From an uncultured Vibrio sp. (lineage in GTDB: Bacteria > Pseudomonadota > Gammaproteobacteria > Enterobacterales > Vibrionaceae): a DNA stretch of 64,000 bases. The notes under the pieces were generated by a model, which saw only the letters and a program-made list of their open reading frames with translations, was not told where the DNA came from and ran no database searches. Made by a program: the position numbers and the translations under genes. The stretch covers positions 19,797 to 83,796 of the forward strand of contig CAXXNB010000010.1 in NCBI GenBank assembly GCA_963676525.2. The letters are read 5' to 3'. Below, in pieces: positions 7,821-37,088 of the stretch (its first letter is position 1; every line of letters begins with the position of its first letter).

Positions 7821-8010
7821 GTTTCTTCCCTGAAATGGCATGGAACTGTGGCAATTCTTCTTTAATTTCCTGTTATCTGCTTATTATCTGTGATCTCTCC
7901 TGATTCTTCACATAGTATAAAACGTTAGTATGAGCGTAAATTTTTATACCCAATTGTTCGGTATATTTTCTTCATTTTTTACGCCAAAACCAGATTTGAA
8001 AGGAGTCGTT

Positions 8011-8460: not shown

Positions 8461-8468
8461 GATTAAAC

Positions 8469-8957: not shown

Positions 8958-8988
8958 CAATGATTAATTCTGTAAGGAGCATGCGTAA

Positions 8989-21553: not shown

Positions 21554-21655
21554 CTTGCTGAGCTTTGTCCATAACAAGGTTGTTTAAGAAAATTGTCTTA
21601 CCTCCCCACATACGCTATATTCATTTTTATTAAATATGAATATTTGAGGTGTTTC

Positions 21656-21904
21656 ATGGCCACTACTAGCTTAAGCTTGGGAGAACATTGGGAAGTGTTC
21701 ATAAAAAATGAAATATCCAGCGGTCGTTATGGTTCCGCAAGTGAAGTTGTGCGTGATGCCTTACGTGCGATGGAAGAACGAAAAAGTAAGTTAGAAGCTT
21801 TACGTGCTCACCTGTCCGAAGGTGCCACCCAGGCTAATAATGGCGATTTTGTTGATGATTTTTCTATGGATTCACTTATCAATGACCTGGATGCAGAGTC
21901 CTGA
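21656..21904 (+). CDS. parD: ParD-type (ribbon-helix-helix) antitoxin
   Basis: TSLSLGEHW...SGRYGSASEVVRDALR motif, acidic C-terminus, overlaps the toxin start. ATG 21656 behind GAGG. Confidence 0.88.
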   Translation: MATTSLSLGEHWEVFIKNEISSGRYGSASEVVRDALRAMEERKSKLEALRAHLSEGATQANNGDFVDDFSMDSLINDLDAES

Positions 21905-22218
21905 TGACGCACAATCCTAAGATAAAGGTCAGAGTCACCCCTCGTGCTCAGGATGATTTAAAAAATATCGGCCGTTATACGGAGCAGATATGGGGAAAAG
22001 CGCAACGAAACCGCTACTTGAAGAACATTGAAGTACGCTTTCAATGGCTTGCTGAAAATCCTTTACTTGGTAAACATCGAACGGATATCTGTGAAGGCTA
22101 CTACAGTTTTCCTGAGGGGCAGCATGTGGTGTTCTACCTAATTGGCAGTCATTCCATTGATATCATCGGTATTCCCCATAAAGAAATGGACACGATTCAT
22201 TATTTCTTGGAAAGCTAG
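21904..22218 (+). CDS. parE: ParE/RelE-family toxin
   Basis: RAQDDL..IGRYT..IWG..Q...Y, NPLLG, HVVFY pattern. Confidence 0.9.
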   Translation: MTHNPKIKVRVTPRAQDDLKNIGRYTEQIWGKAQRNRYLKNIEVRFQWLAENPLLGKHRTDICEGYYSFPEGQHVVFYLIGSHSIDIIGIPHKEMDTIHYFLES

Positions 22219-22256: not shown

Positions 22257-22282
22257 AGCGTGTTTAAGGAATGTTTGGGGAA

Positions 22283-22303
22283 TTATTCAATATTCTGGAT
22301 CTG
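22283..22303. repeat. Distal att site (displaced original yicC 3' end)
   Basis: ttattcaatattctggatctg. Minus strand encodes QIQNIE-TAA. 17 bp are identical and 19 of 21 match the copy at 36222-36242. Confidence 0.92.
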
Positions 22304-22363
22304 AATGAACTATTTTATATTAAGCTATTGATTATATTATATTATATTATTTTTGTTTTATTA

Positions 22364-22387
22364 TTTGTCACCAGCATGTCACCAATT
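22364..22387. promoter_or_regulatory. Probable integrase arm-type sites, left end
   Basis: Tandem TGTCACCA (tttgtcacca 22364-22373; tgtcaccaatt 22377-22387). The same motif recurs at the right end. Confidence 0.7.
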
Positions 22388-22595
22388 GAATTAAACTCTT
22401 CAATAAAGTACACATACAATTTCCCCAACCATCGTTATCGTCTGCATAAAAAGGTTATATACCTAAACCTAGTAATTATCAGGTGTAACTTATTGCTATT
22501 TCACAAAGATGCAATTTTTTCCCCCTGGTACTTTGCCAGAATTTCATTAGAATAATACTATATGTACCTAATTAAGTTTTAAGAGTATTTTCTAA

Positions 22596-23861
22596 ATGTC
22601 ACCCAAACCTAACGCTTTCAAAAGTGGCACCTATATCGATCTTTTCTCTGGTTGTGGAGGACTATCACTAGGTTTAGGTAATGCTGGTTGGAAGGGGCTT
22701 TTCGCTGTAGAAAAAGATTCAATGGCATTTTCTACTTTTAAGCACAACTTAATTGATGGAAAGCATGCACACTTTGATTGGCCTGAGTGGTTGCCCAAGC
22801 AATCCACAACAATTCAAAAACTTCTAGAAGAGTATCCGCAACAGTTATCTGATTTAAAAGGTAACGTTGATCTAATTGCGGGAGGACCACCTTGTCAGGG
22901 ATTCTCGATTGCGGGACTAAGAAATGCGAAAGATCCAAGAAATAAACTATCAGACGAATATATAAAAATGGTAGAGATAGTCTCTCCTAAGTTTCTCCTA
23001 TTAGAAAATGTACGCGGATTTAATACTTCTTTTAAAGCTCCTGAGGGTAAGAAAGCAAGAAAGCCTTATTCAATGATCGTAAAGGCGAAGCTTGAAAGTC
23101 TTGGTTATAAAGTGTTCACCGACTTTCTATGTAGCGCAGACTTTGGAGTTCCCCAAAAGCGCACTAGGTTCATAATGATAGGAATCAAAAATGAATTAGT
23201 AGGTCAAGACTTCCAGAATCCTTTTGAAACTATTAAAAAAAATAGAAGGGATTTCTTGATTAGTAAGAAGCTACCTCTACGTCAAGTTAAAGTAAAGGAC
23301 GCTATTGGTGATCTATTAGTGAAAACGAATGGATTGATATACCACTCAGGAACTGAGAAAAGTGGTTTTAAACAGGTTGACTATAAAGTTCCTTCAAAAC
23401 CTTCGAAGTACCTCCGAGTTATAAGGAAGGGGGCTGGAAACTCTAAGCCCAATAGTCTTCGATTGGCTAGACATAAAGAGAGCACTATAGAGAAATTCAC
23501 GAAGATTCAGAAAATCTGTAAGCCTGGTGTTAGTTTGAGTGAGCAGATGCGTTTGGAAATAGGAACTAAGAAGCAAGCGATAACCGTTTTAAATCCCAAT
23601 GAACCATCAACAACGCTAACTACCTTACCGGATGATTTACTTCACTATAGTGAGCCAAGAATTCTTACGGTAAGAGAAATGGCACGTATCCAATCATTTC
23701 CAGATAGTTTTGATATTTTAGGGAAGTATACCACCGGTGGTGATAGACGGACTCAAGAATGCCCTAGATATACTCAAATAGGAAATGCAGTTCCTCCTCT
23801 TCTTGGTGAGGCATTGGGTGCAACAATTAGGAATATAAGGACTAAGTTAGACAATGGATAA
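22596..23861 (+). CDS. DNA (cytosine-5)-methyltransferase
   Basis: Motif I FSGCGG, motif IV GGPPC(100)QGFS, ENV, QKRTRF, RILTVREMARIQSFP and QIGNAVPP. Confidence 0.96.
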   Translation: MSPKPNAFKSGTYIDLFSGCGGLSLGLGNAGWKGLFAVEKDSMAFSTFKHNLIDGKHAHFDWPEWLPKQSTTIQKLLEEYPQQLSDLKGNVDLIAGGPPCQGFSIAGLRNAKDPRNKLSDEYIKMVEIVSPKFLLLENVRGFNTSFKAPEGKKARKPYSMIVKAKLESLGYKVFTDFLCSADFGVPQKRTRFIMIGIKNELVGQDFQNPFETIKKNRRDFLISKKLPLRQVKVKDAIGDLLVKTNGLIYHSGTEKSGFKQVDYKVPSKPSKYLRVIRKGAGNSKPNSLRLARHKESTIEKFTKIQKICKPGVSLSEQMRLEIGTKKQAITVLNPNEPSTTLTTLPDDLLHYSEPRILTVREMARIQSFPDSFDILGKYTTGGDRRTQECPRYTQIGNAVPPLLGEALGATIRNIRTKLDNG

Positions 23862-26277
23862 GTTACAATTCGAGGTTAGCTCAGGGTTAAAATCTATTAT
23901 AGGTAAAGATCTAATAACAAATGATATTGTAGCTATCTTTGAATTAGTAAAAAATTCCTACGATGCAAACTCTAAAAGAGTAGATATCATTTTTACTACT
24001 AAGTTTGAGAAAATAAAGGTAGATAATGAGCATATAGAAGTTGCTTATAAAGATAAGATTTTTATCATTGATAGTGGCAAGGGGATGTCTTATCAAGATA
24101 TTAAAAATAAGTGGTTAAAAGTTGCATATTCAGCAAAAAAAGATGGAACGGAAGACCATTTACATAAAACCTATGCAGGGAATAAAGGTGTAGGTAGATT
24201 CTCCTGCGACAGGTTAGGTGCTAAATTAAGAATTCAATCAAAAACAGAAGATTGTGATGAAATCTCAAATTTATATATAGATTGGGGGGATTTTGATAAG
24301 GACTTTAAAAGGGAGTTTTCGAGTGTAGATATTCTTTATGAAAAAAAAGAAAGCTTTGATTTCCCCAAAGAGTTTAATGAAAAAATAAAATCTGGAGTTA
24401 TAATTGAAATTTCTAGTTTAAGAGAAAAATATTCTTGGACAACAAATAAATTACTAGATTTAAAAAGAAATTTAATTAAGCTTGTAGACCCTTTTGGTGA
24501 TTCTAGATTTGTATTTGATATATATATAAATGATAGTTATTCAAAAGAACGTGATGACAATATTATAAATAGTGCCCAACCAGAAGACGAATTTCAAACC
24601 AATATAATAAACGGGAAAATAAGTAATACAATAATAGATGTATTAAAATCCAAAACAACGTATCTTGAAGTTGAGTTGAAAGACAAACATTATTATTCAA
24701 CTCTTAAAGATAGAGGAGAGTTGGTTTATAAAATTAAAGAGCCAATTAATAAAAACAGTTTCTTAGTTGATAGTTCTTTTAAATGCGAATTGTTTTTTCT
24801 TAATAGATCAGCCAAATCTACTTTTACTCGGAGGATGGGAACACAATCAGTGAGTTATGGTTCGTTGTTCTTATTTAGGAATGGCTTTAGAGTTTATCCC
24901 GTAGGTGAAGAAGATAATGATTTTTGGGGATTAAATAGAAGAAAACAACAAGGTCATTCTAGATATCTCGGTAGTCGAGATATTTTAGGTAAAGTTGAAG
25001 TATGGGGAAATGAAGATGAATTTAAAGAAGCATCTAGCCGAGATATGGGATTAATTAAAACTGATGCTTCTGAGGAATTAAAAAAAGTAATTTTAGATAG
25101 AGTTGTAAAAAAATTGGAAGCATATGTTGTAGGTATACAATGGAAAGATGCTTTTGATAAAGATTTTGATACACCAGAAAGAATGTTTAGGGATGAAAAT
25201 AAAGTAAGAATATTAGATTTAGTTTCAAAGCTTTCTGGGACGGACTCTATAGAGCTTATTGATTATAACAATGATCTTGTTGCGATTTATGACGAAAAAT
25301 CTAAACACTTTGAGTCTACAATAGACAAAATAGTTGGGCTTGCTGGGGAAACTAATAATACTAAGCTTTTAAAATTAGTAAAAGAAGCAACATCTAGATT
25401 TGAATTAGAGAAGAAAAGGGCTGAAGAAGCTAAGAAGCAGGCTGATTTAGAACAGAAATTACGTCGTGAAGCTGAGCTTAAGGCCAGAGAAGAATCAATA
25501 CGACGGGCTGAGGAAGAGACTAAAAGGCGTCAAGCAGAAGCACAAGCCGAAAAATTTAAAGTAGAATCTGAACATGAAAAGTCACGAAATCTCTTTTTAT
25601 CTTCAATGGCAAAAGATAGAGATAAAGAAAAGTTAGAAAGTTTTATTCATCAATTAATAATTTATTCTGCTGCGACAAAAGACTTAATTAACAATGCAAT
25701 TTATAAAGTTAATAAGAATAAAGGAAATCTAGATAAGTTAGAGATATTAGATGTATTTTCAGAGATATTAAATAATAATGAAAAAATAATAACGACATCA
25801 AGATTTGCTGTAATGGCTGATTTTATGCTTGATTCAGCTTGCATAGAAGAAAATTTAACTGATTATATAGCTCAATATATGAGTGATATTATAACTGCAT
25901 ATAATCAAAAAATTAAAATAGAAAATAACATTCCTAATGATATTGATTTTGTTATCCGTTTTTCTCCAATCGAAATAGGGTTAATATTTGATAATTTGAT
26001 TTCTAATGCGCAAAAGGCAAGAGCTTCAAAAGTTATTGTAGATGCTAAGGTTGATAAAAATAATTACCTTATTATTACAGTCACTGATAATGGTAAAGGT
26101 ATTAGCTCACAAATAGATGCAACACGAATATTTGAGAAAGGGTACACTTCAACGAATGGATCCGGTCTCGGTTTATATCATGCGAAAACTCAAGTAGAAA
26201 AAATTGGTGGTGAGATATTACTCGATGAAACACAACCATTACGAGGCGCAAGATTTACTATAAGGATAAAGAAATGA
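23854..26277 (+). CDS. Fusion of MORC/MutL-type GHKL ATPase, coiled coil and histidine kinase (two ATP-binding GHKL domains)
   Basis: N-terminal ELVKNSYDA, IIDSGKGMS, GNKGVGRFS. Charged coiled coil around residues 500-580. Putative H-box FIH(599)QL. C-terminal DNLISNA, DNGKG, IFEKGYT, GSGLGLY. No TM segment. Confidence 0.88.
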   Translation: MDKLQFEVSSGLKSIIGKDLITNDIVAIFELVKNSYDANSKRVDIIFTTKFEKIKVDNEHIEVAYKDKIFIIDSGKGMSYQDIKNKWLKVAYSAKKDGTEDHLHKTYAGNKGVGRFSCDRLGAKLRIQSKTEDCDEISNLYIDWGDFDKDFKREFSSVDILYEKKESFDFPKEFNEKIKSGVIIEISSLREKYSWTTNKLLDLKRNLIKLVDPFGDSRFVFDIYINDSYSKERDDNIINSAQPEDEFQTNIINGKISNTIIDVLKSKTTYLEVELKDKHYYSTLKDRGELVYKIKEPINKNSFLVDSSFKCELFFLNRSAKSTFTRRMGTQSVSYGSLFLFRNGFRVYPVGEEDNDFWGLNRRKQQGHSRYLGSRDILGKVEVWGNEDEFKEASSRDMGLIKTDASEELKKVILDRVVKKLEAYVVGIQWKDAFDKDFDTPERMFRDENKVRILDLVSKLSGTDSIELIDYNNDLVAIYDEKSKHFESTIDKIVGLAGETNNTKLLKLVKEATSRFELEKKRAEEAKKQADLEQKLRREAELKAREESIRRAEEETKRRQAEAQAEKFKVESEHEKSRNLFLSSMAKDRDKEKLESFIHQLIIYSAATKDLINNAIYKVNKNKGNLDKLEILDVFSEILNNNEKIITTSRFAVMADFMLDSACIEENLTDYIAQYMSDIITAYNQKIKIENNIPNDIDFVIRFSPIEIGLIFDNLISNAQKARASKVIVDAKVDKNNYLIITVTDNGKGISSQIDATRIFEKGYTSTNGSGLGLYHAKTQVEKIGGEILLDETQPLRGARFTIRIKK

Positions 26278-27164
26278 AGTTAACTTATAATATTTTATGG
26301 TTTGAAGATCAATTTGATGCAATCACGCCATCAGTCGATAGGTTGGAAGGTTTTATTCGAGATGAAGGGCTAATACCTGTTTTAGAAAAGCGAAATGGCA
26401 TCACGGAGGAAGAAATTTATAAAATATCAGATAAACTTGAAAGAAATAATCCGTATGATTTGGTTATTTTTGATTTTGATATGGGAGAGGGTTCTCTTGA
26501 TGGTATTGAAATAGCTAAAATTCTTAGAACAAACATATATACAGATATGGTGTTTTATTCAGGAAAAAAACCAGATGAAATAAGTGAGCTTGTTTATAAA
26601 AATGGAGTTCAAGGAGTATATATTGCTCATAAATTGAATTTGATCGATGAAGTAGAGCCTTTAATTCAAGACCAAATAAAAAAAATATCAAGCTTAAATG
26701 GTGCTAGAGGGCTTGTGATGTCTGAGTCTAGTCAGATAGATATTGATCTTAGAAATAAGGTTATTAATGTTGTAAAAGGTTTTTCTAGAGAAGAGCTTGA
26801 TACGATTACCAAGAAAATAAAAGAAAGGTTAAGTAGTAAACTGAATGAAAGAGGGAAAAAGCTAGAAGAACTAGAAGTGTACGATATTATTTTTAGTACT
26901 ATGCTAATGGATAACGATACACTCAGGAAAACATGTAAGGATATTTATACATCCTCTACAATTTTTAATGAAGGTGGTAAATATCAAGTAACACAGCAAG
27001 AACGGAATTTTTTAGCTCATAATCCTCATGAATTACTTGATAATGGAGATATATTGGTTAAAGGTTTAAATAAAAATAGGACATATAACCATAGTGAATT
27101 TAGTCGAGTAAGGAAAGAACTCATTGAGCTTAAGAGTTTAATAAATGAAATTGATACACAATAA
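26274..27164 (+). CDS. Receiver (REC) domain protein with C-terminal helical domain bearing a HEPN-like RxxxxH motif
   Basis: ILWFED acidic pocket, LVIFD(67)FDM...DG and VFYSG. C-terminal R244-NFLA-H249. ATGA overlap with the kinase gene. REC call is firm; HEPN call rests on the motif only. Confidence 0.75.
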   Translation: MKLTYNILWFEDQFDAITPSVDRLEGFIRDEGLIPVLEKRNGITEEEIYKISDKLERNNPYDLVIFDFDMGEGSLDGIEIAKILRTNIYTDMVFYSGKKPDEISELVYKNGVQGVYIAHKLNLIDEVEPLIQDQIKKISSLNGARGLVMSESSQIDIDLRNKVINVVKGFSREELDTITKKIKERLSSKLNERGKKLEELEVYDIIFSTMLMDNDTLRKTCKDIYTSSTIFNEGGKYQVTQQERNFLAHNPHELLDNGDILVKGLNKNRTYNHSEFSRVRKELIELKSLINEIDTQ

Positions 27165-27609
27165 AACAGTCATCGTTGATCTTGATGGAACTTTAGCTTT
27201 AAACAAGCACCGAAGTCACTTTATTGATAAGTCCGATGGCAAGAAAGCTGACTGGGTCTCGTACTTTGAGGCTTGTGATCAAGACTTACCTCATAAACCA
27301 GTTATTGAGTCAGTAAATGCTCTAAAGAGGCAAGGGTATCGAATACATATTTTTTCTGCCAGAGGTGATTTAGTCAGAGATAAAACCGTTAATTGGCTTT
27401 CCCGATATGGTGTTATGTATGATGAACTTACAATGAGGGAAATGGATACATTTACAGCAGATGAAATACTGAAACGTTTTTGGTTGGTAGATCTTTATCC
27501 AAACTACAAAGATGACATTCTGTGTGTGTTCGATGACAGAGATAAAGTTGTCAAAATGTGGCGCGATTTGGGCCTCATATGCTTTCAAGTAGCAGAAGGA
27601 AACTTTTGA
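27145..27609 (+). CDS. HAD-superfamily phosphatase resembling the 3'-phosphatase domain of T4 polynucleotide kinase
   Basis: VIVD(12)LD(14)GTLA, IFSAR, LTMR...D...K and VFDDRDKVVKMWRDLGLICFQVA. Confidence 0.88.
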   Translation: MKLIHNKTVIVDLDGTLALNKHRSHFIDKSDGKKADWVSYFEACDQDLPHKPVIESVNALKRQGYRIHIFSARGDLVRDKTVNWLSRYGVMYDELTMREMDTFTADEILKRFWLVDLYPNYKDDILCVFDDRDKVVKMWRDLGLICFQVAEGNF

Positions 27610-27648
27610 TTTGCTCCCTTCGATAGGCTCTAACTATTAGAGATAATT

Positions 27649-28377
27649 ATGACAAACTGGAAGATATATGAAAGGTTCGTTGCTGAGTTGTGTTCTGATG
27701 ACTATCAGTCTTCTAGTGTTACAGTTATTCCGAATGCCAAAATTAAAGGCTGTCTAAGTCAAACACTTAGGCAAGTGGATGTACTCATTGATTCTCGTTT
27801 TGGTGACGATAGAAATCGTAGAATTATTGTCGACTCAAAGAAGTATAACCGTCCGTTAAACGTTAAAGATGTAGAAAGCTTTCATGGAATGATGCTCGAT
27901 TGTTCATCTAAAGCAGGTATTTTAGTTTGTCCCAACGGTTATAGTGAAGCCGCGAAGAAAAGAGCACAGGATTTCATTAATCTCAAAGTGGTATCCCTTG
28001 CTGAGCTAGAAAATATTGATCTTTCATTATGGGATGATTGTTTCAGTGAGAATTGTAACGATAAAGCTGAACGAGGGTTAGTATTGTGGGACAGCCCCAT
28101 GGGCATAGGTTCTACTATGTCCCCCGTATCAATTTCCTGCATCGGGAAGTGTGATGTCTGCGGTGACTTCCATATTTGGTGTTGGGACTGCGGTACTAAG
28201 TTTTCTGTAAGCAATGAAAGTGAAGCTCAATGTGCCTGTGGTTATCCCTGGTTTTGGCTTACAACTATTGAAGAAGATGACATTAGTTCAAATGAGTACG
28301 AAATATCAAAATCCGTATATTTGCTTTTAGTTACTCTAAAAGATGTTTTTATTGCGGATCGAAAGCCATTGAATTAA
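27649..28377 (+). CDS. Mrr-type PD-(D/E)xK restriction endonuclease with Cys-rich C-terminal domain
   Basis: YE(8)RFVAEL, RQVD(44)VL, IVD(62)SK(64)KY, VKDVESF and GYSEAA. C-terminal CxxxxC, CDVC, CWDC and CAC. Confidence 0.82.
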   Translation: MTNWKIYERFVAELCSDDYQSSSVTVIPNAKIKGCLSQTLRQVDVLIDSRFGDDRNRRIIVDSKKYNRPLNVKDVESFHGMMLDCSSKAGILVCPNGYSEAAKKRAQDFINLKVVSLAELENIDLSLWDDCFSENCNDKAERGLVLWDSPMGIGSTMSPVSISCIGKCDVCGDFHIWCWDCGTKFSVSNESEAQCACGYPWFWLTTIEEDDISSNEYEISKSVYLLLVTLKDVFIADRKPLN

Positions 28378-28514: not shown

Positions 28515-31109
28515 CTAAAGTCTACATCGCCCAACGGTTTTCTTCGTTACACTAGACTGTCGATTTAGTCCTTCTGGATATGAGAATTCGTGTAAGATAC
28601 TTTTGTCTAATTGATACTCGACAGCCAAAGAAGCATGACGATCTTGCTTCATCAACTCTGCTAGAGCTGCCTGTCTTAAGGAGTCTGTAGGCTCAACACC
28701 ATCTTCAAACACTCGTACCCGCTCATTAATTTCGGCCTTATTGACATAAATGTGCGACTCGTCTTTATGACGGCTTAGAGCGACATACGTTTCTCGTTGG
28801 CCCATCCGTCCAGAGTAGAGAGTGAACGTATTGCCATTTATGGTTGTACCTTGTGAACTAAAAATAGTTAAAGCGTATGCATGGCATAAATTGACTCCTA
28901 TCTCGTCGGTGTATTCTGAAGCTAGAAATGAAATAGTCCGGTTATTATCAAGAGTCACTGTGAGCTGAACATCATCATCTAATGATGTAATAGCTCGGAT
29001 AGTTCCCAAGGTGCCATTCGTCACTTGTAAGTATCTATATTCATTACGACAGAATTTAACGCGATCTCCTATAGAATAATCATATTCAAATTTTTTATCT
29101 GCGACACTGCATGTTAGCTTGATGTTCTCTGTACCAACTTTGCCTTCATTGATATAAATTTTCCGAATTGCCTTGCTGAGTTCTTTTACATATTTCCATT
29201 CGCGTGCAATCACTAATGATTGTTTCTCAGGGTGGGACTTTTGATAGTTATGCCAATCACTGATCAGAGCTTGTATGGCTTCTTCATTGTTATTGGCCCA
29301 GTGTAAACAGTCATGCTTTTGAAGAGACTCTAAAGCTTGTTCTGAGCGTTTATCTCGGAGATCGACGACGACTTGCTTTGCCCAAGTTTTTCTTTGGCGA
29401 CGGATTGTTTCAATCCGTTGTGTTCCCAGAATTTCCGGTTTGGATAGAAAGCGTAGGGCACCACCTCGAGAGATTGCGTCAAGTTGCTTATCTTCTCCGG
29501 TGAGAATGACCTTGCAGTTTGATTCTTTTGCTTCGTGCAGAAGTAATTGCAAGTCAGTACTGGGAAGTAATCCCGCTTCATCCACAATCAAAACATCAAC
29601 ATTAATCAAAGGATGTCTATTATCTTGAATAGTTGTTACTAATGAAGCCACTGTATGAGATTGAATTCCTGTTTCTTGCGTGAGATTATCGGCTGCTTTT
29701 TTCGCAATACAGGCTCCTTTGACAGTTAACTCTTGTTTCTCATAAGCAAGCTTTGCCGCAAGCATTAATGTCGTTTTACCTGCGCCAGCGCTACCTTGAG
29801 TGATAGATAGGTTACCGGAACATAATGTGTATTGAATTGCTTCTTTTTGTTCCTCACCGAAAGAGAACCTCAGTAGTTTTTCAGCAGTGATAACAGCATC
29901 ATTAACTTGTTTTACTGTGATATTTGTTGTGTTCCGTTTCGCTAGAATTTTGGCGTCGTTGATCATCAGGCGTTCACATAACAGAACATCTTCAGTGGTA
30001 AACTGACGAGAAAAAGCATTCTTAGGCTGTAATGAAAATATCTCTTCACTTTCAAGAATGAAGCGCGATAGTGTTTCGGCTTTCGTAGCATTTATGCCTT
30101 GATGTGAGGCTTGTACTGCGATAGTTCGAAATAGCTCTTGTTCAGTGAAAACCGCTTTTTTATCAGTGATCTCTGATAAAATTTTGTATTCATCAATTTC
30201 TGTGGGTGTCAGATTTTTCTCTTTCCGAGTTAAAGATTCAATATAAGTTTCTGACAAACCATAGGTTGCTAGTTCACTTTTCCATCTTTGAAATAGCTTA
30301 TCTCGAGTTATTTTCTTTTTGTTTTTTCTATTTAGAGTCTTAAATCGAGCTCCTTCTTTGCTTGAGCTGCTTTTTATTCCCGACTTTTTGAGCTCTCTTT
30401 CAATTTCTTTGGCTCGACTAGAAAAGATATCACATGCCTCTTTTGAGACCCCCGCTACTTGGAAAGAATCATTGTCAGGATCAACTTCGAATCCTAACTC
30501 TCTCATTTGATAAGCTAGCTCTGCACGGTAAATAGCGCCTGAAGCCATTTTCCAAAAATAAAGACTGTCTGACGTAATAGAACCCCATGAATCGTCAATA
30601 CGTGGAGCAATATTCAGAACGAGTACATGAGTATGTAGATGTGGATCTTCATTTCTATTTGTACAATGTTCAAAAGTGGCTAAAACTAATCCAGCTGTTT
30701 TTTCGTAGTTTGAAGAGCGTGCACAGCGGCGTGTCATTGCAGCGTGTCGTTCTATAAATTTGATAACTTTATCCACTGCTTTCTGTTGTGCTTTTTCAAT
30801 TTTGTTCTGTAATTCAGGAGAAGCTACTGCCCATGCTAAGGTGACACTTTTTGGTGCATTAAGAGTGCAATCCCATCCTGCGCGACGATTTTCCTTTCCA
30901 GCGTTTTGGACAAGTGCTTTACCGGATGGAGAATATCCATTCATCAATTTTAGATAATCGTCGTCATTGATAGTTTGCCCATGCAGTTGAAGAACTTTTG
31001 CACCTAATCCGAGCCAAGAACCTTTCGGCTCTCCATGACCAGAGTAATAATCTTCCTGCGCTAAATCAGCGTAGTAAGCAATGTTGTTTATCGGGTGAAT
31101 AGACATCAT
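28515..31109 (-). CDS. MobF (TrwC/TraI-like) relaxase with C-terminal RecD-like helicase
   Basis: YY(12,13)...DYY(21,22), HCTNRNEDPHLHTH HUH motif, QGSAGAGKTT, VDEAG, GEDKQL, SSQGTT and YVALSR. Confidence 0.95.
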   Translation of the reverse strand: MMSIHPINNIAYYADLAQEDYYSGHGEPKGSWLGLGAKVLQLHGQTINDDDYLKLMNGYSPSGKALVQNAGKENRRAGWDCTLNAPKSVTLAWAVASPELQNKIEKAQQKAVDKVIKFIERHAAMTRRCARSSNYEKTAGLVLATFEHCTNRNEDPHLHTHVLVLNIAPRIDDSWGSITSDSLYFWKMASGAIYRAELAYQMRELGFEVDPDNDSFQVAGVSKEACDIFSSRAKEIERELKKSGIKSSSSKEGARFKTLNRKNKKKITRDKLFQRWKSELATYGLSETYIESLTRKEKNLTPTEIDEYKILSEITDKKAVFTEQELFRTIAVQASHQGINATKAETLSRFILESEEIFSLQPKNAFSRQFTTEDVLLCERLMINDAKILAKRNTTNITVKQVNDAVITAEKLLRFSFGEEQKEAIQYTLCSGNLSITQGSAGAGKTTLMLAAKLAYEKQELTVKGACIAKKAADNLTQETGIQSHTVASLVTTIQDNRHPLINVDVLIVDEAGLLPSTDLQLLLHEAKESNCKVILTGEDKQLDAISRGGALRFLSKPEILGTQRIETIRRQRKTWAKQVVVDLRDKRSEQALESLQKHDCLHWANNNEEAIQALISDWHNYQKSHPEKQSLVIAREWKYVKELSKAIRKIYINEGKVGTENIKLTCSVADKKFEYDYSIGDRVKFCRNEYRYLQVTNGTLGTIRAITSLDDDVQLTVTLDNNRTISFLASEYTDEIGVNLCHAYALTIFSSQGTTINGNTFTLYSGRMGQRETYVALSRHKDESHIYVNKAEINERVRVFEDGVEPTDSLRQAALAELMKQDRHASLAVEYQLDKSILHEFSYPEGLNRQSSVTKKTVGRCRL

Positions 31110-31113
31110 AGGG

Positions 31114-32790
31114 TTACTTCCTTTTGTTTAAGCGATTGGTTTGTGGCTGCGTTTTTTGTGTTACTGGCTTTTTTGAATAAGGGGTAGTTACCCATTTTGC
31201 TGGCACTTTCCTTTTGGCTTTTTGAATGCTTTGAAATAACGGCCATCTCAGTTTGTATACAGCATTCCAGCCTGGAATCTGTATATATCCTTCGACACCT
31301 TTCCGTGTTGGTTGCCCCAGCTGGACTAAATCTGATGCCTTTACAACTGGTGTTTCTTCTCTTTTCCCAATTCTATCTGGATGGTCATAATCAGGAGTTT
31401 CTGCTGTGTACTCACCAAAAATATTTGCACTGTATTTTGCATCATCGCCTGCTGCGCCCATCCTAAAAGTGATGACATTGGATAGTAAGTTGATTATTGA
31501 GTCTGTTTCTTCTTTACCGTAAACAGAATGAAGTTGAGAGATTGACTGAGTACAAAGTACTGACCGAGCACCATTTTCTCTAGCTAATTCAAGCCATTTC
31601 TTTATATTTGGGTTGCGTGGAAGGTTGGCAAATTCGTCAATGAACAACCATGTTTTCCTTTTAGAAGAAAAAGTTCCAGCTAGATAATGCTTTGTCATTA
31701 GAGAAAGAATGGCATTACATAGCGGTTCTCCAAGGCTAGGAAATTGACTGTGTGCTTGAATCATAATGACATGTTTTGCTTGGCTATCTTTAAGCCAACT
31801 TTTCAGACTAAATGTTGATCTAGATTGTTCCGGCCACGCTTTTGCCAAATCTTCAATCCAACTCAATTTGCTCATAATATGAACATAAAAACCTTGGGTT
31901 GTTTTTGATTCGGACTCAATGAAACTTGTCACTATTGGATGATGAACAACAAATTCTGAGCGAGCTTTGTCAGGGCTAAACATAAATTGTTTATAAAGGT
32001 CATTCCAGCCCCATGCATTTCCTTGTACATGGATTAATTTCATCAACATGCTGACAAAAATAACTCTGGCACCTTGATCCCAGATTGGATCAGGAGTTTT
32101 AGAGTCGGGGATTAAACACAGCGCCAAAAGTTCTGCATCTTGCTTGGTTGTAATATCTTCACAAATATTCCAGCAAATGCTGCGTTTGTCCCATGGTGCA
32201 AGTAAGATAGTGTTATTTGGGCTATAAAAGCTCTCTGTATATTCCCCTTTCTCATCATAGATCACAGCATAGTCGCCTCGATTGAGTGCCAATTGAACAA
32301 GTAGCTTGAATGCTGTCGATTTACCTGCTCCTGTGGTTCCGTTAATTAGAAAGTTGTTTTGCTCCCTTGCTTCTGTGATTTTGATGTTTGGATGGACTTT
32401 TATACCAGTGCGGGTGAATGGGTTGCCTCGTAAATCTTTTCTGTGCTGAGCTTTGGCATGTCGAATTGCTTTTCGTCCTGAGTACAGCTTGGGGCCAGCA
32501 ATGTATTTCAGCTCATATGATTTGTGTCTTGATTTGAAGATAAATGTAATAAAAGAAACAGATAATGCGAGAGCTACAGATAAAGTGATAGCATTGTTTT
32601 CACTGTGGACTACTGATTGCCAGTCACCATCTCGTCCATAATTTTGAAGCACTTCCCTTAGCCACATCTTATTGCTATGAGGTGATTTAATCCAAGAAAA
32701 CCCCTTCAAAGCCATTGTCACTGGAATAGCCAGCAGAATGCTGGCCAAAATAAAAATAATGGTCTGGTAGATACGAGAAATTAGAATCAT
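31114..32790 (-). CDS. Type IV coupling protein (TrwB/TraD-like)
   Basis: Two N-terminal TM segments, GTTGAGKST, IYDEKGEY, FIDEFANL and TQSISQL..VYG. Confidence 0.92.
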   Translation of the reverse strand: MILISRIYQTIIFILASILLAIPVTMALKGFSWIKSPHSNKMWLREVLQNYGRDGDWQSVVHSENNAITLSVALALSVSFITFIFKSRHKSYELKYIAGPKLYSGRKAIRHAKAQHRKDLRGNPFTRTGIKVHPNIKITEAREQNNFLINGTTGAGKSTAFKLLVQLALNRGDYAVIYDEKGEYTESFYSPNNTILLAPWDKRSICWNICEDITTKQDAELLALCLIPDSKTPDPIWDQGARVIFVSMLMKLIHVQGNAWGWNDLYKQFMFSPDKARSEFVVHHPIVTSFIESESKTTQGFYVHIMSKLSWIEDLAKAWPEQSRSTFSLKSWLKDSQAKHVIMIQAHSQFPSLGEPLCNAILSLMTKHYLAGTFSSKRKTWLFIDEFANLPRNPNIKKWLELARENGARSVLCTQSISQLHSVYGKEETDSIINLLSNVITFRMGAAGDDAKYSANIFGEYTAETPDYDHPDRIGKREETPVVKASDLVQLGQPTRKGVEGYIQIPGWNAVYKLRWPLFQSIQKAKRKVPAKWVTTPYSKKPVTQKTQPQTNRLNKRK

Positions 32791-33628: not shown

Positions 33629-33820
33629 TTATTGGTTATCTAACCAGTTAGTTATATCTTTCAATTTCCAGCCTAATATTTTATTCCCGGTGTAAACTCC
33701 GGATGGAAAGTTCGCTTCAGTATTTCGACGTAATCTATCTAAAGTCGCTGTACTGATATTTAATATTTGGCAGACTTGCCGTTTTCGTAAGAGTAGTGGT
33801 GTTAGTTGCTGGTACTTCAT
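33629..33820 (-). CDS. AlpA-family HTH protein (probable recombination directionality factor)
   Basis: LLRKRQVCQILNISTATLDRL...FP...ILGW...I.NW pattern. AAGAGG RBS. Confidence 0.88.
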   Translation of the reverse strand: MKYQQLTPLLLRKRQVCQILNISTATLDRLRRNTEANFPSGVYTGNKILGWKLKDITNWLDNQ

Positions 33821-33935: not shown

Positions 33936-34841
33936 ATGGGAATTCCAATCGATAAGCTAAGAACGATTTTTTGGGCTCATAGAGTCCTAGAAATTGATGG
34001 CCTTGATGGGCTATTGAAAAAAGGTAAGTCCGATAAAAATAAAATCGTTAAGTTGATTGAGGAGAGGTATGAAAAAGTAGAACCTTTATTTAAAGACGAT
34101 GATATTTTTGATGTTGCAATGGAATTATTTTTTGATAAAGCCTCGTGGAAAAGATATTTGTCTGGGGAAACGCCACCAAGCTATAGTAAAGAAGGAAATT
34201 TTTTTACAAATGGAATAAACAGGCACTCTTACAAGGTTAATATTGTTGAAACTTTGTTTCCTGAAGTAAAAGGTTATTACCTCAATGGCCCATATGGATT
34301 AATTGATGTGATGTCTTGTGATAACTTAGATGACGCTTTACATACTTTCGAAAACAATTTGAAATCTTTTGTGAATATTCATGAGGCTAATCATGTGCGT
34401 CATGAGCAAGCTGATATTCAACCTTTTACGTTCTCAGACACTTGGGAAGCGATTAAAAACCGAATGAAACATGTTCCTGAGAATAATTTCGACATTATGA
34501 AATGCTCATTACCGAGTTTGTATGAACTTCCATCGAAGTGGTCTCCTGTGTCTGAAGCTCCATTATTCCTGCTTATGGCTATAGGATATATTGAAGCTCG
34601 TTTTATGCAGCGCTTTCCGTCTTACCAGTCTGTGCTTGATGGAACACAACTAGCTGAGATTGCTATCTTTGATGACGAAAAGCGCATTGAATCTGGGATT
34701 TTGTATTTAGAAAAAAAATATCAGATAAATCGAAAGATTTGGTTTGAGGATGATGTTTTTAATATGGCAAGAAAGAATATCCTCGATAGAGGACGTGAAG
34801 CATTTCCTGAACTTGCCGAATTTGATTTTGATAATGGCTAG
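33936..34841 (+). CDS. Hypothetical protein (301 aa), divergent from AlpA and convergent with the integrase
   Basis: Long ORF filling the gap between backbone genes. No family recognised. Confidence 0.75.
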   Translation: MGIPIDKLRTIFWAHRVLEIDGLDGLLKKGKSDKNKIVKLIEERYEKVEPLFKDDDIFDVAMELFFDKASWKRYLSGETPPSYSKEGNFFTNGINRHSYKVNIVETLFPEVKGYYLNGPYGLIDVMSCDNLDDALHTFENNLKSFVNIHEANHVRHEQADIQPFTFSDTWEAIKNRMKHVPENNFDIMKCSLPSLYELPSKWSPVSEAPLFLLMAIGYIEARFMQRFPSYQSVLDGTQLAEIAIFDDEKRIESGILYLEKKYQINRKIWFEDDVFNMARKNILDRGREAFPELAEFDFDNG

Positions 34842-34844
34842 TAT

Positions 34845-36041
34845 TTATTCTCCTAATATATAAGGAGTAAGCTTCAAGCTAAGTATTTCATATGCTTCTC
34901 TTCGTTGTTCTAAGTAATCATGTATATCGTAAGTCCCTGCTATTTTGGGGAGCTTATGATTTAAGCATCTTTCAGCTATATGCGGAAGGATATGGCAACC
35001 TGACAGTAAGGTTCTGAAAGTCCGTCGTAGGTCATGCACAGTGAAGTGTGCAATATCGACATCATCCTGAGATAGTAATTTATTCAGAGCTGCGTTTAGT
35101 GTGTCGGGTGATACATGTCCAAACCTTTTAGATGATCGTCGCTTGGGAAATACATAAATACTGTCTGCTGCCCTGATTTTTAATTCAGCAAAAATATCCC
35201 AGATTTTTGATGGGAGAGGAATTGAAATTGCCAAGGAATTTTTTGTTCTTTCTTCCGGGATATGCCAAAGCTTTTCTTCAAAGTCGAATTCGTCCCATTT
35301 GGCTGCTATCAATTCTCCTTTCCTAACACCGAGTAGTAAAAGTAAGCAGCAGGCCAAGTAGTTTTCACGAACAAAAATATCGTTGTGTGATTTTATTGCT
35401 TTGAACAGCGACTCGATTTCATCGATTGATAAGACTCGTTTTCGTGGCTTTTCTTCACCGCCAGCATCATGAATATCAAATGCATATGCTGGGTTATATT
35501 TTATTAACCCCATCTTGATAGCATGGTTGAAAAGTTGTTTAAGATAGCTTAGAGCATCATTTGAGATAGAAGGGCGATTATCGTCGTTAATAGCTCTTAT
35601 TATTTGAGCAATATCCCGAGGTTCCACCTTGCTTACTTCCATCTTGCCAATGAGTGGAGATATATCTTTCCGGTAGACGCGTTCCGGAATTTGAGGGTTT
35701 TTGATTCTTTTGCTTTTTACTGATAACCAATCATCGGCTAGGTGATCAACAGTATCAAATTCTAGCCTTTCAGTGCGTTTTTTCTCGATCTGTGGGTCGT
35801 TCCCGTTTTTCAATTCATATTTTAATAGAATCGCACGTTCTTTTGCTTCAGCACCTTTAATGCCCGCCGGTGGCACTCCATACTTAGCTATTGTATGTTC
35901 CTTTCTTTGCCCTTTATATGTATATCGAAAAGTCCAGAATGCGGACATTGGGCTTACTACTCGAAAATAAAGCCCTGTAGATATGCGATGACGCCTAGGC
36001 TCGCCCTCTTTCATTAAGGCTATGAGATCATTATCTTTCAT
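34845..36041 (-). CDS. Tyrosine recombinase/integrase (P4-like, with arm-binding domain)
   Basis: N-terminal GLYFRV...WTFRY...G arm domain. Catalytic GVRKGEL, HDLRR, LNH and terminal TY. Confidence 0.96.
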   Translation of the reverse strand: MKDNDLIALMKEGEPRRHRISTGLYFRVVSPMSAFWTFRYTYKGQRKEHTIAKYGVPPAGIKGAEAKERAILLKYELKNGNDPQIEKKRTERLEFDTVDHLADDWLSVKSKRIKNPQIPERVYRKDISPLIGKMEVSKVEPRDIAQIIRAINDDNRPSISNDALSYLKQLFNHAIKMGLIKYNPAYAFDIHDAGGEEKPRKRVLSIDEIESLFKAIKSHNDIFVRENYLACCLLLLLGVRKGELIAAKWDEFDFEEKLWHIPEERTKNSLAISIPLPSKIWDIFAELKIRAADSIYVFPKRRSSKRFGHVSPDTLNAALNKLLSQDDVDIAHFTVHDLRRTFRTLLSGCHILPHIAERCLNHKLPKIAGTYDIHDYLEQRREAYEILSLKLTPYILGE

Positions 36042-36052
36042 GATGGGTGCTC

Positions 36053-36119
36053 AAATTGGTGACAATGAGACAAAAGTATCATGTTGTCTCAATTTTTGTC
36101 ACCACTTTGTCACCAATTT
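36053..36119. promoter_or_regulatory. Probable arm-type sites / inverted repeat at the right end, over the integrase promoter region
   Basis: aaattggtgacaa (36053-36065) is inverted with ttgtcaccaattt (36107-36119). tttgtcacca occurs in tandem at 36095-36104 and 36106-36115. Inner IR tgagacaa/ttgtctca. Confidence 0.7.
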
Positions 36120-36221: not shown

Positions 36222-36242
36222 CTACTCAATATTCTGGATCTG
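36222..36242. repeat. yicC-proximal att site (restored yicC 3' end)
   Basis: ctactcaatattctggatctg. Minus strand encodes QIQNIE-TAG. Direct repeat of 22283-22303. Confidence 0.92.
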
Positions 36243-37088
36243 CTCACGCATCTGCTCAATTAACACTTTAAGTTCTACCCCTGTAGCAGTGACTTCGGTG
36301 TTAATAGACTTCGATGCCAGAGTGTTAGATTCGCGGTTGAATTCCTGCATCATAAAATCTAAGCGGCGGCCGACAGCGCCACCTTTTTTCAGGATGTTTT
36401 TGGTTTCTTTTACGTGAGAATCTAAGCGATCCAGTTCTTCTGCAACATCAGATTTCTGAGCCAGAAGAATTAACTCTTGTTCAACCCGGGTCGAATCCAG
36501 CTCCACTTTTGCTTCTTCAAATTTAGAAAATAAGCGGTTGCGCTGCCATTCGATGATTTCAGGCATCATGGTACGAACTTTAGTAACTTCTTCTGTAATG
36601 GCATCTAAACGCTGTTCAATAAGCGCTTTCATGTTGTCGCCTTCACGGCCACGAGCTGCAAGGAAATCTTCAATTGCTTCATCAAACGCACCCAGCAACT
36701 CTTTGGTGATTGAATCGATATCCTGCTCTGGTGTTTCCATGACACCTGGCCACTGCATTACCTGAAATGGATTAATCCGGCTGAGTTCACCAGTCATATG
36801 CATAACCTGATTCGCTGCCTTAATGACCTGTTCAGCTAATCTTTCATTGATCGTTAGTTCGTCTTTTGCTGCAGGGTTTGCTTCATAACGAAGGTGGCAT
36901 TCCACTTTACCGCGAGCCAGTTTCTGACGGAATCGATCGCGAAGAACCGGCTCGAGTCCACGGAACTGCTCTGGTAAGCGGAAGTAGGTCTCGAGGTAGC
37001 GTTGATTTACGGAGCGGATTTCCCATACCGCTGTTCCCCAATCAGCTTTGACTTCTTTGCGTGCGTACGCCGTCATACTGTAAATCAT
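36222..37088 (-). CDS. yicC: YicC/YloC family endoribonuclease
   Basis: MIYSMTAYAR, SVNQRYLE, DVAEELDRL, GRRLDFMMQEFNRESNTLASKS and EQMREQIQNIE. Confidence 0.97.
   Translation of the reverse strand: MIYSMTAYARKEVKADWGTAVWEIRSVNQRYLETYFRLPEQFRGLEPVLRDRFRQKLARGKVECHLRYEANPAAKDELTINERLAEQVIKAANQVMHMTGELSRINPFQVMQWPGVMETPEQDIDSITKELLGAFDEAIEDFLAARGREGDNMKALIEQRLDAITEEVTKVRTMMPEIIEWQRNRLFSKFEEAKVELDSTRVEQELILLAQKSDVAEELDRLDSHVKETKNILKKGGAVGRRLDFMMQEFNRESNTLASKSINTEVTATGVELKVLIEQMREQIQNIE

What the first reader, a model, noticed from the sequence alone, without database searches (positions are those of the whole stretch)
22596..28377. Candidate new anti-phage system: C5-MTase + MORC-ATPase/His-kinase + REC-HEPN + Pnk-like phosphatase + Mrr nuclease
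Seen: five co-oriented genes. The first four are linked by overlapping stop/start codons (23854/23861, ATGA at 26274-26277, 27145/27164); the fifth starts 39 bp later. They are visibly AT-rich and are the whole cargo block of a mobilizable island. Established: island cargo is enriched in defence genes. Comparative genomics has placed prokaryotic MORC-type GHKL ATPases in restriction-modification-like operons. HEPN RxxxxH domains are RNases in abortive-infection systems. Mrr-type PD-(D/E)xK enzymes cut DNA. Inference: the MTase marks self DNA, the ATPase senses unmarked or invading DNA, its fused kinase phosphorylates the receiver and activates an RNase effector, the HAD enzyme resets or processes the products, and the nuclease is a first line of defence. 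This would be restriction wired to a two-component phosphorelay. I know of no experimental description of this five-gene set, but I could not search for one.
Basis: partly seen in the sequence, partly recalled or inferred. Interest (0 to 1): 0.9.

Follow-up and report, generated by a model that had tools for sequence, protein, structure and literature searches.

The report
Methylase-linked kinase-to-RNase relay, five-gene variant
A mobile island in this Vibrio-like genome carries a DNA methylase, a soluble sensor kinase and a receiver protein with a probable RNA-cutting domain, a trio already described by computer analysis in 2021 and still untested, here extended by a phage-type RNA-end phosphatase and a DNA nuclease.

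Summary
The five co-oriented, overlapping, AT-rich genes sit at the stated coordinates, and every named catalytic residue is present. They are the cargo of a 13.9-kb integrase/relaxase/coupling-protein island bounded by a 19/20 direct repeat at the 3' end of yicC.

The conserved unit is three genes, not five: C5-methyltransferase, a MutL/Hsp90-like GHKL ATPase fused to a histidine kinase, and a receiver protein with an Rx4H C-terminal domain.
- The trio co-occurs in 79 of 80 genome loci from many phyla.
- The kinase and receiver co-vary with each other, but not with the methylase.

This trio was published in silico in 2021 (HEF_HK/Response_reg_2, PMC8011034). A related methylase-kinase-regulator-nuclease system, Ambrosia, was validated in 2025. 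This scan has met the trio in at least 14 other genomes.

What this window adds:
- A Pnk-type HAD phosphatase follows the receiver gene in about ten lineages. Elsewhere an unrelated calcineurin-like phosphoesterase takes that position.
- The Mrr nuclease is replaced by an HNH nuclease in one lineage.
- In sister Vibrio islands the kinase-receiver pair alone is swapped (31-82% identity) inside a constant methylase/phosphatase/nuclease frame.

The HEPN call rests on the motif and helix order; Foldseek found no match. Function is untested.

Verdict: a new variant of a known kind.

The parts
22284..22303 (.). attL-like direct repeat (left end of the island)
   Evidence: 19/20 match to 36223-36242 (family D8).
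22533..22561 (+). Promoter-like site upstream of the methylase gene
   Evidence: TTGCCA-17-TACTAT, 9/12. This is a consensus match only.
22596..23861 (+). C5 cytosine DNA methyltransferase (421 aa; catalytic C100 in PPCQ, ENV at 137)
   Evidence: PF00145 3.5e-59; TIGR00675 dcm; PADLOC MTase_II 2e-82; motifs checked.
23854..26277 (+). Soluble dual-GHKL kinase (807 aa): paraMORC/MutL-like ATPase head, conserved middle region, coiled coil, DHp with H599-Q600, HK catalytic domain
   Evidence: HATPase_c_3 at 26-150 and HATPase_c at 707-806. BbrUII/HgiDII family 1e-16 over residues 17-242. H599 and Q600 invariant in 15 diverse homologues. Profile positions 572-787 align to the HK853 DHp+CA domains.
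26274..27164 (+). Receiver domain (D67) fused to an all-alpha Rx4H domain, probably a HEPN RNase (296 aa)
   Evidence: D67, R244 and H249 are invariant in 80 homologues. AlphaFold model has pLDDT 95.1, and the receiver domain has Foldseek hits to CheY/PmrA. Rx4H is present in 143 of 143 complete homologues. Sub-threshold HEPN Pfam hits occur in 6 members. The C-terminal domain has no Foldseek hit.
27145..27609 (+). Stand-alone T4-Pnk-type HAD 3'-phosphatase (154 aa; D12/D14, S71, DD130-131)
   Evidence: PF25109 HAD_PNKP 2.2e-30. phrog_415 and phrog_505 'polynucleotide kinase', 2.7e-43 and 1.7e-35. It follows the receiver gene in about ten other lineages.
27649..28377 (+). Mrr-type PD-(D/E)xK nuclease with a Cys-rich C-terminal region (242 aa; D44, D62, K64)
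   Evidence: PF04471 Mrr_cat 1.9e-9. 80-82% identical in sister Vibrio islands. An HNH gene takes its place in L097.
28515..31109 (-). TrwC-type relaxase/helicase of the island
   Evidence: PF08751 4.4e-73 and AAA_30.
31114..32790 (-). TrwB/TraD-type coupling protein
   Evidence: PF10412 7.1e-67.
33629..33820 (-). AlpA-type excision regulator
   Evidence: PF05930 1.8e-6.
34845..36041 (-). Tyrosine integrase
   Evidence: PF00589, Phage_int_M and Arm-DNA-bind_3.
36223..36242 (.). attR-like direct repeat inside the 3' end of yicC (36222-37088, minus strand)

Best explanation
The core is a three-gene, horizontally mobile, restriction-modification-like immune or addiction cassette in which the DNA-cutting subunit has been replaced by a phosphorelay.

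Proposed mechanism:
1. The C5-methyltransferase keeps resident DNA modified (inferred).
2. The paraMORC/MutL-like ATPase head of the 807-aa protein monitors DNA or the methylation machinery (inferred).
3. On a trigger, the fused kinase autophosphorylates H599 and passes the phosphate to D67 of the receiver protein. The domains and residues are shown; the chemistry is inferred.
4. Receiver phosphorylation switches on the C-terminal Rx4H domain, a probable HEPN RNase. RNA cleavage then arrests the infected or methylase-less cell (inferred).

In this Vibrio island lineage two accessories are attached. One is a phage-Pnk-type 3'-phosphatase, which most likely acts on the 2',3'-cyclic or 3'-phosphate ends that HEPN RNases leave. 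The other is an Mrr-type nuclease acting on DNA as a second layer. The kinase-receiver pair behaves as one exchangeable module inside a constant methylase/phosphatase/nuclease frame.
For: Linkage:
- 492 relatives of the kinase were found among 185,579 species genomes.
- In the best 80 loci, methylase + kinase + receiver co-occur in 79. No other neighbour is conserved.
- The trio recurs in metagenome contigs that carry enough flanking sequence.

Kinase:
- H599-Q600 are invariant.
- DHp+CA align to solved histidine kinases, and the head aligns to MutL/PMS1/Hsp90.
- The head matches the BbrUII/HgiDII restriction-enzyme family at 1e-16.

Receiver:
- D67 is invariant. The model has pLDDT 95 and CheY-like fold hits.

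Effector domain:
- R244 and H249 are invariant and N245 is conserved in at least 90% of members. Rx4H is present in 143 of 143 homologues, 127 of them as RN.
- The helix order H1-H2-insert-H3(Rx4H at its end)-H4 matches the published HEPN description (PMC3710099).
- Weak HEPN_RiboL-PSP, LA2681 and Apea hits occur in 6 members.
- The domain is found almost only fused to a receiver: 1210 cluster representatives in all, and the best 150 have this layout or look like fragments of it.

Pair behaviour:
- Kinase and receiver similarity co-vary (rho 0.75), against 0.17 and 0.14 with the methylase.
- blastn breakpoints fall at the MT/HK and REC/HAD junctions.

Accessories:
- HAD follows the receiver gene in about ten lineages.
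- An unrelated calcineurin-like phosphoesterase overlaps the receiver stop codon in L110, L130 and L138.
- HNH replaces Mrr after HAD in L097.

Mobility:
- The receiver gene was found in 6 of 200 other species genomes of the genus.
- The cargo is AT-rich and lies in an island at yicC.

Precedents:
- Detocs shows that a kinase-to-receiver-effector relay can defend against phage.
- Ambrosia shows that a methylase + HK/Hsp90-like ATPase + regulator + nuclease operon defends and needs its phospho-Asp.
- paraMORC-HEPN direct fusions occur in R-M neighbourhoods (PMC3710099).
Against: - There is no experiment on this cassette.
- Foldseek found no HEPN or any other significant match for the isolated C-terminal model (pLDDT 90.7) in PDB or BFVD.
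- The PDB profile search and a Pfam scan of the consensus sequence gave no HEPN hit.
- PADLOC has no model matching the kinase, receiver or HAD.
- The methylase does not co-vary with the kinase. The same methylase orthologue (about 75% DNA identity) sits next to kinase-receiver pairs only 31-32% and 22-26% identical. This argues against a co-adapted sequence-specific readout.
- In Ambrosia the two-component part is proposed to act through transcription, not through an enzymatic effector.
- HAD and Mrr are absent from most loci, so their role may be independent of the trio.
Confidence: 0.55

Rival explanations
1. The cassette is mainly a selfish addiction (post-segregational killing) module. 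Loss or dilution of the methylase leaves the chromosome unmodified, the kinase fires, and the Rx4H effector kills the cell. This stabilises the island rather than protecting against phage.
For: The trio is tightly linked and rides on mobile islands. There is no dedicated endonuclease. In L166 and L054 the cargo is kept next to yicC while the mobilisation genes have decayed or gone. PMC8011034 discusses R-M systems as selfish elements.
Against: This is not exclusive of defence, since classical R-M systems do both. Swapping of the kinase-receiver module inside a fixed frame looks more like an arms race with an outside antagonist than simple addiction. Ambrosia and Detocs are bona fide anti-phage systems.
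Confidence: 0.2
2. The kinase and receiver are a regulatory two-component system that controls expression or activity of the neighbouring R-M-type genes (methylase, Mrr). This is what the 2021 paper speculated and what was proposed for Ambrosia. On this view the C-terminal domain is a non-catalytic interaction or RNA-binding module.
For: PMC8011034 discussion. Ambrosia AbrC is a REC-wHTH protein, and reporter expression rises on infection. The fold search gave no support for HEPN.
Against: No HTH or other DNA-binding domain was detected in 80 members. R and H of the Rx4H motif are invariant across at least 143 homologues from many phyla, which is the signature of a catalytic site. Most loci have nothing to regulate except the methylase.
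Confidence: 0.1
3. The five genes are two or three separate units that happen to be stacked in a defence island: the methylase-kinase-receiver trio, a stand-alone type IV (Mrr-like) restriction enzyme, and a phosphatase with an unrelated role.
For: HAD is present in only 9 of 150 fetched loci and Mrr in 3. HAD occurs without Mrr in L002/L097, L100/L101, L144 and L165. A 39-bp gap and a weak promoter-like site precede Mrr. The frame and the kinase-receiver pair have different histories.
Against: HAD overlaps the receiver stop codon by 20 bp here, and overlaps it or lies within about 20 bp in L001, L002/L097, L003, L100 and L144. Two unrelated phosphoesterase families occupy the same slot. Two unrelated nuclease families follow HAD. 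HAD and Mrr stay in place when the kinase-receiver pair is replaced.
Confidence: 0.15

Closest known systems
HEF_HK / Response_reg_2 'two-component-system-like' elements linked to C5-methylases and paraMORC ATPases (Bellieny-Rabelo, Pretorius & Moleleki 2021, PMC8011034)
   Same: Same architecture: a soluble HATPase_c_3 + DHp(His) + HATPase_c protein, an adjacent divergent receiver protein with a conserved Asp, and an adjacent PF00145 methylase. The paper's seed genes came from Pectobacterium, and Pectobacterium proteins are full-length homologues of this kinase (P0035 48%, P0099 42%).
   Different: That paper names no output domain (the word HEPN does not occur in it), reports no experiment, and suggests a regulatory role. 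The window's proteins do not reach the Pfam models: PF19192 matched only 9 of 80 family members weakly, and PF19191 was not reported. The HAD and Mrr accessories and the module swapping are not described there.
Ambrosia (AbrR-AbrA-AbrB-AbrC-AbrD; bioRxiv 10.1101/2025.09.30.679545)
   Same: An operon of a DNA methylase, a histidine-kinase/Hsp90-like ATPase, a receiver protein and a type IV-like nuclease. It was shown to block phages in P. aeruginosa PAO1. Every gene is needed, and so is the phospho-acceptor Asp.
   Different: Ambrosia has an XRE regulator, an N6-adenine methylase, a REC-wHTH regulator acting (as proposed) on transcription, and an HNH nuclease. Here there is no XRE, the methylase is C5, the receiver carries an Rx4H enzyme-like domain, the nuclease is PD-(D/E)xK, and a phosphatase is added. 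Homology of AbrB to this kinase could not be tested because no sequence was at hand.
Detocs (DtcA-DtcB-DtcC; bioRxiv 10.1101/2023.01.24.525353)
   Same: Same logic: a kinase senses infection and phosphorylates a receiver fused to a toxic enzymatic effector, leading to abortive infection. Effector domains are swappable, and Detocs was first tested from a Vibrio.
   Different: The Detocs sensor is TPR-based rather than a GHKL ATPase. There is no methylase, a stand-alone buffer receiver (DtcB) is present, and the effector is an ATP nucleosidase (PNP). PADLOC models gave no hit.
PrrC/RloC anticodon nucleases and paraMORC-HEPN (Ymh) fusions in R-M contexts (PMC3710099)
   Same: A HEPN RNase is coupled to an ATPase and embedded in or guarding an R-M system. 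In the T4-PrrC conflict the cut tRNA ends are healed by T4 Pnk, whose phosphatase domain is the family of the HAD gene here. That last point is from my own knowledge plus the PHROG hits.
   Different: There the ATPase and the HEPN domain are in one polypeptide. Here they are joined by a His-to-Asp phosphotransfer, and the Pnk-type phosphatase is encoded by the host cassette without a kinase or ligase partner.

Membership tests
HEF_HK / Response_reg_2 cassette (PMC8011034) | Soluble protein with N-terminal HATPase_c_3, a DHp helix with a conserved His, and a C-terminal HATPase_c | tested here: met
   H599 is invariant. No membrane segment is evident in the sequence.
HEF_HK / Response_reg_2 cassette (PMC8011034) | Adjacent receiver-like gene with a conserved acidic pair and phospho-acceptor Asp | tested here: met
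   E11-D12 and D67 are present. The fold is confirmed. The gene is adjacent in 80 of 80 loci.
HEF_HK / Response_reg_2 cassette (PMC8011034) | Adjacent C5 cytosine methylase (PF00145) | tested here: met
   present in 79 of 80 loci.
HEF_HK / Response_reg_2 cassette (PMC8011034) | Match to Pfam PF19191 (HEF_HK) and PF19192 (Response_reg_2) | tested here: not met
   Neither model is reported for the window proteins at E<=0.01. PF19192 is hit weakly by 9 of 80 relatives. Full-length homology to Pectobacterium members still argues for the same family.
HEPN superfamily (C-terminal domain of the receiver protein) | Rx4-6H motif with a polar residue after R | tested here: met
   R244-N-F-L-A-H249. R and H are invariant and N is conserved in at least 90% of members.
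HEPN superfamily (C-terminal domain of the receiver protein) | [quoted passage not shown] | tested here: inconclusive
   The order of secondary-structure elements in the model fits (compared with PMC3710099). The three-dimensional packing was not compared with a solved HEPN structure.
HEPN superfamily (C-terminal domain of the receiver protein) | Significant profile or fold match to a known HEPN family | tested here: not met
   Foldseek against PDB and BFVD gave best E-values of 0.11 and 0.18. The PDB profile search gave none. Only sub-threshold Pfam HEPN hits were found, in 6 of 80 members.
Ambrosia | XRE regulator, N6-adenine methylase, REC-wHTH regulator, HNH type IV nuclease | tested here: not met
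   There is no XRE gene. The methylase is C5, the receiver carries an Rx4H domain and no HTH, and the nuclease is Mrr_cat.
Ambrosia | AbrB-type HK/Hsp90-like ATPase homologous to this kinase | not testable with these tools
   The AbrB sequence is not in the held text.
Detocs | DtcA kinase, DtcB stand-alone receiver, DtcC receiver-PNP effector | tested here: not met
   There is no stand-alone receiver gene and no PNP domain. PADLOC gave no hit.
Classical type II R-M | Methylase with a cognate DNA endonuclease | tested here: not met
   No conserved endonuclease gene lies next to the trio in 80 loci. The kinase matches the BbrUII/HgiDII family only over its GHKL head, model positions 14-215 of 659.
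T4 Pnk-type HAD phosphatase | DxDxT nucleophile motif, S/T motif II, DD motif IV, and a full-length match to the PNKP phosphatase domain | tested here: met
   PF25109 positions 2-143 of 143, 2.2e-30. phrog_505 positions 161-295 of 295. Motifs checked.
Mrr / type IV restriction nuclease | PD-(D/E)xK catalytic core (Mrr_cat) | tested here: met
   PF04471 1.9e-9 with D44, D62 and K64. No N-terminal winged-helix domain as in E. coli Mrr was detected. A Cys-rich C-terminal region is present instead.

The most novel reading that the evidence does not exclude
The kinase/receiver-Rx4H pair is a hypervariable sensing-and-killing cartridge that is exchanged by recombination inside a constant methylase/phosphatase/nuclease frame. 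The host-encoded phosphatase (HAD-Pnk type, or calcineurin type in other lineages) is an 'anti-repair' arm. It strips the 2',3'-cyclic phosphate from RNA cut by the effector, so that RtcB-type or phage RNA-repair enzymes cannot reseal it. On this reading the defence system carries its own answer to RNA-repair counter-defence.
Probability: 0.15. Interest if true: 0.8.

Novelty: new variant of a known kind. Interest (0 to 1): 0.55.

Why it matters
The trio is widespread: 492 species genomes and many phyla. It is still untested, and it would be an R-M-like system that signals instead of cutting DNA.

This window offers a compact, intact version that can be cloned, with two extra parts that sharpen the question.
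- The recurrent phosphatase, supplied by two unrelated enzyme families in the same slot, points to RNA 3'-end chemistry. It gives a simple handle for proving that the Rx4H domain is an RNase in vivo.
- The natural module swaps in sister Vibrio islands are ready-made chimeras. They can be used to ask what the kinase senses and whether it needs its own methylase.

If the methylase-loss toxicity test is positive, it would show a new way of coupling epigenetic self-marking to abortive infection.

Tried and rejected
- **Foldseek on the isolated C-terminal domain.** Searches against PDB and BFVD found nothing significant. The full-length model returned only receiver-domain hits.
- **Other searches for a HEPN match.** A profile search of PDB with the C-terminal alignment and a Pfam scan of consensus sequences gave no HEPN hit.
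- **The 1.84-billion-protein profile search.** It showed the domain almost only in the same receiver-fused layout, so it gave no bridge to a named HEPN family.
- **P0143 as a receiver-HAD 'Rosetta stone' fusion.** Rejected. It lacks the DxDxT half of HAD and sits on a 2.1-kb contig, so it is probably a deletion or an assembly artefact. It still shows that HAD follows the receiver gene there. P0146 is likewise a kinase-tail/receiver read-through.
- **ParDE as part of the island.** Rejected, because it lies outside attL.
- **Plasmid and phage collections.** They hold only distant partial relatives of the kinase.
- **'MORC' as a family label.** Rejected in favour of a paraMORC/MutL/Hsp90-like GHKL domain.

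Full report
**Observation**

The overlaps are 8 bp, 4 bp and 20 bp, followed by a 39-bp gap. GC falls to 0.29-0.37 over the block, against 0.40-0.47 on either side.

Pfam and NCBIfam give these assignments:
- A C5 DNA methylase (3.5e-59).
- An 807-aa protein with HATPase_c_3 at residues 26-150 and HATPase_c at 707-806.
- A 296-aa protein with a weak receiver match.
- A full-length PNKP-type HAD phosphatase (2.2e-30).
- An Mrr_cat nuclease (1.9e-9).

The block is the cargo of an island. A 19/20 direct repeat lies at 22284-22303 and 36223-36242, the second copy inside the 3' end of yicC. The rest of the island is a TrwC relaxase, a TrwB-type coupling protein, AlpA, a tyrosine integrase and a few unassigned ORFs. 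ParDE lies just outside.

**What is conserved**

A pattern scan of one genome per species found 492 relatives of the 807-aa protein. They come from Proteobacteria, Verrucomicrobiota, Bacteroidota, Planctomycetota, Acidobacteriota and other phyla.

In the 80 best loci the kinase is followed by a homologue of the 296-aa protein in 80 of 80. A C5 methylase is adjacent in 79 of 80, either upstream and co-oriented or downstream and convergent. Clustering of all neighbouring ORFs found no fourth conserved gene. Metagenome contigs with enough flanking sequence show the same trio. So the unit is three genes, and it has no dedicated DNA endonuclease.

**The parts**

- *Kinase.* In the 807-aa family, H599-Q600 and the N, G1 and G2 boxes are invariant. 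A family profile aligns positions 572-787 to the DHp+CA domains of HK853-type kinases, and aligns the head to MutL, PMS1 and Hsp90. NCBIfam places the head nearest the BbrUII/HgiDII restriction-enzyme family, but only over the GHKL part. 'paraMORC-type' is therefore a better label than 'MORC'.
- *Receiver.* In 80 homologues of the 296-aa protein the invariant residues include D67, R244 and H249. AlphaFold gives a confident two-domain model (pLDDT 95.1). Its N-terminal half matches CheY, PmrA and PorX receivers.
- *Output domain.* The C-terminal half is all-alpha. It has a long helix pair, an insert, a helix ending in R244-N-F-L-A-H249, a small beta-meander and a last helix. This is the order the HEPN survey describes: motif at the end of helix 3, a polar residue after R, and an insert between helices 2 and 3 (PMC3710099). 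The Rx4H motif is present in 143 of 143 complete homologues, 127 of them as RN.

Independent confirmation of the HEPN fold failed:
- Foldseek on the isolated domain (pLDDT 90.7) found nothing in PDB or BFVD.
- A PDB profile search and a Pfam scan of consensus sequences were empty.
- Only 6 of 80 members give sub-threshold hits to HEPN_RiboL-PSP, LA2681 or Apea.

A search of 1.84 billion representatives found 1210 clusters with this domain. The best 150 are all the same ~300-aa receiver-fused layout or shorter proteins that look like fragments of it. I rate 'HEPN RNase' at about three in four.

**What is already known**

The trio was described by sequence analysis in 2021. That paper reported HATPase_c_3 + a new DHp (HEF_HK) + HATPase_c, next to a divergent receiver (Response_reg_2) and a C5 methylase, in 644 regions of 628 strains (PMC8011034). 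It does not mention HEPN, includes no experiment, and suggests a regulatory role. Its seed genes came from Pectobacterium, and Pectobacterium proteins are full-length homologues of this kinase. The window's own proteins do not reach the two Pfam models.

Three published precedents bear on the mechanism:
- Ambrosia, from a 2025 preprint, is an operon of an XRE regulator, an N6 methylase, a histidine-kinase/Hsp90-like ATPase, a REC-wHTH regulator and a type IV HNH nuclease. It blocks phages in P. aeruginosa. Every gene and the phospho-acceptor Asp are required.
- Detocs shows that a kinase-to-receiver-effector relay can act as abortive infection.
- The HEPN survey had noted paraMORC-HEPN direct fusions in R-M neighbourhoods and compared them with PrrC.

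Earlier notes of this scan report the same trio in at least 14 other genomes. One of them gave me the lead to Ambrosia, which I then read myself.

**What this window adds**

*1. The phosphatase slot.* The HAD gene is close to phage polynucleotide kinase phosphatase domains (phrog_415 2.7e-43; phrog_505 over its C-terminal half). It follows the receiver gene, often overlapping it, in about ten lineages whose receiver proteins are only 22-79% identical to this one. In three other loci the same position, again overlapping the receiver stop codon, holds an unrelated calcineurin-like phosphoesterase.

From my own knowledge, both enzyme families include RNA 3'-end healing enzymes: T4 Pnk, and the Clostridium thermocellum Pnkp and lambda phosphatase. 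HEPN RNases leave 2',3'-cyclic phosphate ends (PMC3710099). The most economical reading is that the phosphatase works on the effector's products. A role in resetting the phosphorelay is the main alternative.

*2. The nuclease slot.* Mrr follows HAD in the Vibrio islands. In a Porticoccus-like lineage (L097) an HNH nuclease follows HAD instead, and Vsr follows that. Other loci have HNH or Vsr directly after the receiver gene. This echoes Ambrosia's gene order.

*3. Module swapping.* Sister islands in the same genus keep the frame nearly constant while the kinase-receiver pair varies widely.

| Component | Amino-acid identity to the window |
|---|---|
| Methylase | 78-85% |
| HAD | 76-86% |
| Mrr | 80-82% |
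| Kinase / receiver pair, by locus | 82/79, 77/77, 46/38, 39/25, 32/22, 31/26% |

At the DNA level one sister island (L166) is about 75% identical across the whole block. In another (L164) the similarity stops near 23810, the methylase/kinase junction, and resumes at 27163, the receiver/HAD junction.

Across 118 loci, kinase and receiver similarity co-vary (rho 0.75), while each is nearly independent of methylase similarity (0.17 and 0.14). The loci are related to one another, so this is descriptive only.

The pair is thus one exchangeable cartridge. This fits an arms race, but it also argues against a kinase head that is co-adapted to the methylase's sequence specificity.

**Mechanism**

I commit to the relay model. 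The methylase marks resident DNA. The GHKL head responds to unmodified DNA or to interference with methylation. H599 is phosphorylated and passes the phosphate to D67. The Rx4H domain is then activated and cleaves RNA, and the cell stops growing.

The domains, residues and linkage are shown. Every activity is inferred. Rival readings are addiction rather than defence, a purely regulatory two-component system, and a stack of independent units; they are scored separately.

The receiver gene was found in only 6 of 200 other species genomes of the genus. The kinase is nearly absent from the plasmid and phage collections. Both fit a chromosomal-island defence gene.

**Limits**

- AbrB could not be aligned.
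- PADLOC (2023 models) recognises only the methylase and, weakly, the nuclease.

**Verdict**

This is a new five-gene variant of a cassette already known in silico, with a validated relative. It is worth a bench test because the locus is compact and the accessory genes make specific predictions.

Noticed in passing
window 22353-22387 and 36084-36118: A 35-nt imperfect direct repeat containing two copies of TTGTCACCA sits just inside each end of the island. It may be a set of integrase or excisionase arm-type binding sites.
   Followed up: no
window 22271-22555: The 94-aa ORF spanning attL is hydrophobic and low in complexity and has no family hit. It is probably not a gene. A promoter-like site for the methylase lies at its 3' end.
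   Followed up: partly
window 21593-22218: A ParD/ParE toxin-antitoxin pair lies between the PFOR gene and attL, outside the island.
   Followed up: partly
L166 (G110:C1) 6592-13603 and L054 6741-12305: In two other genomes of the genus the cassette sits next to yicC without a working mobilisation module. L166 has only a 60-aa relaxase remnant. L054 has methylase-kinase-receiver directly beside yicC. The cargo has outlived its island.
   Followed up: partly
L144 7691-8395 and 8417-9670: After the Pnk-type HAD gene this metagenome locus has a second, different HAD hydrolase and a dCTP-deaminase/dUTPase-like gene on the other strand. This may be a nucleotide-depletion defence neighbour.
   Followed up: no
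L101 8070-8807: A WYL-HTH regulator (of the kind that controls BREX and other defence loci) lies about 700 bp downstream of the HAD gene of that cassette.
   Followed up: no
window 33936-34841: A 301-aa island ORF between AlpA and the integrase has no Pfam or PHROG match.
   Followed up: partly
L001 (record titled Balneola sp. MAG): This 8.5-kb contig is 77-84% identical in protein to the Vibrio cassette and to its relaxase. It is probably a Vibrio-type island contig mis-binned into a Balneola MAG.
   Followed up: no
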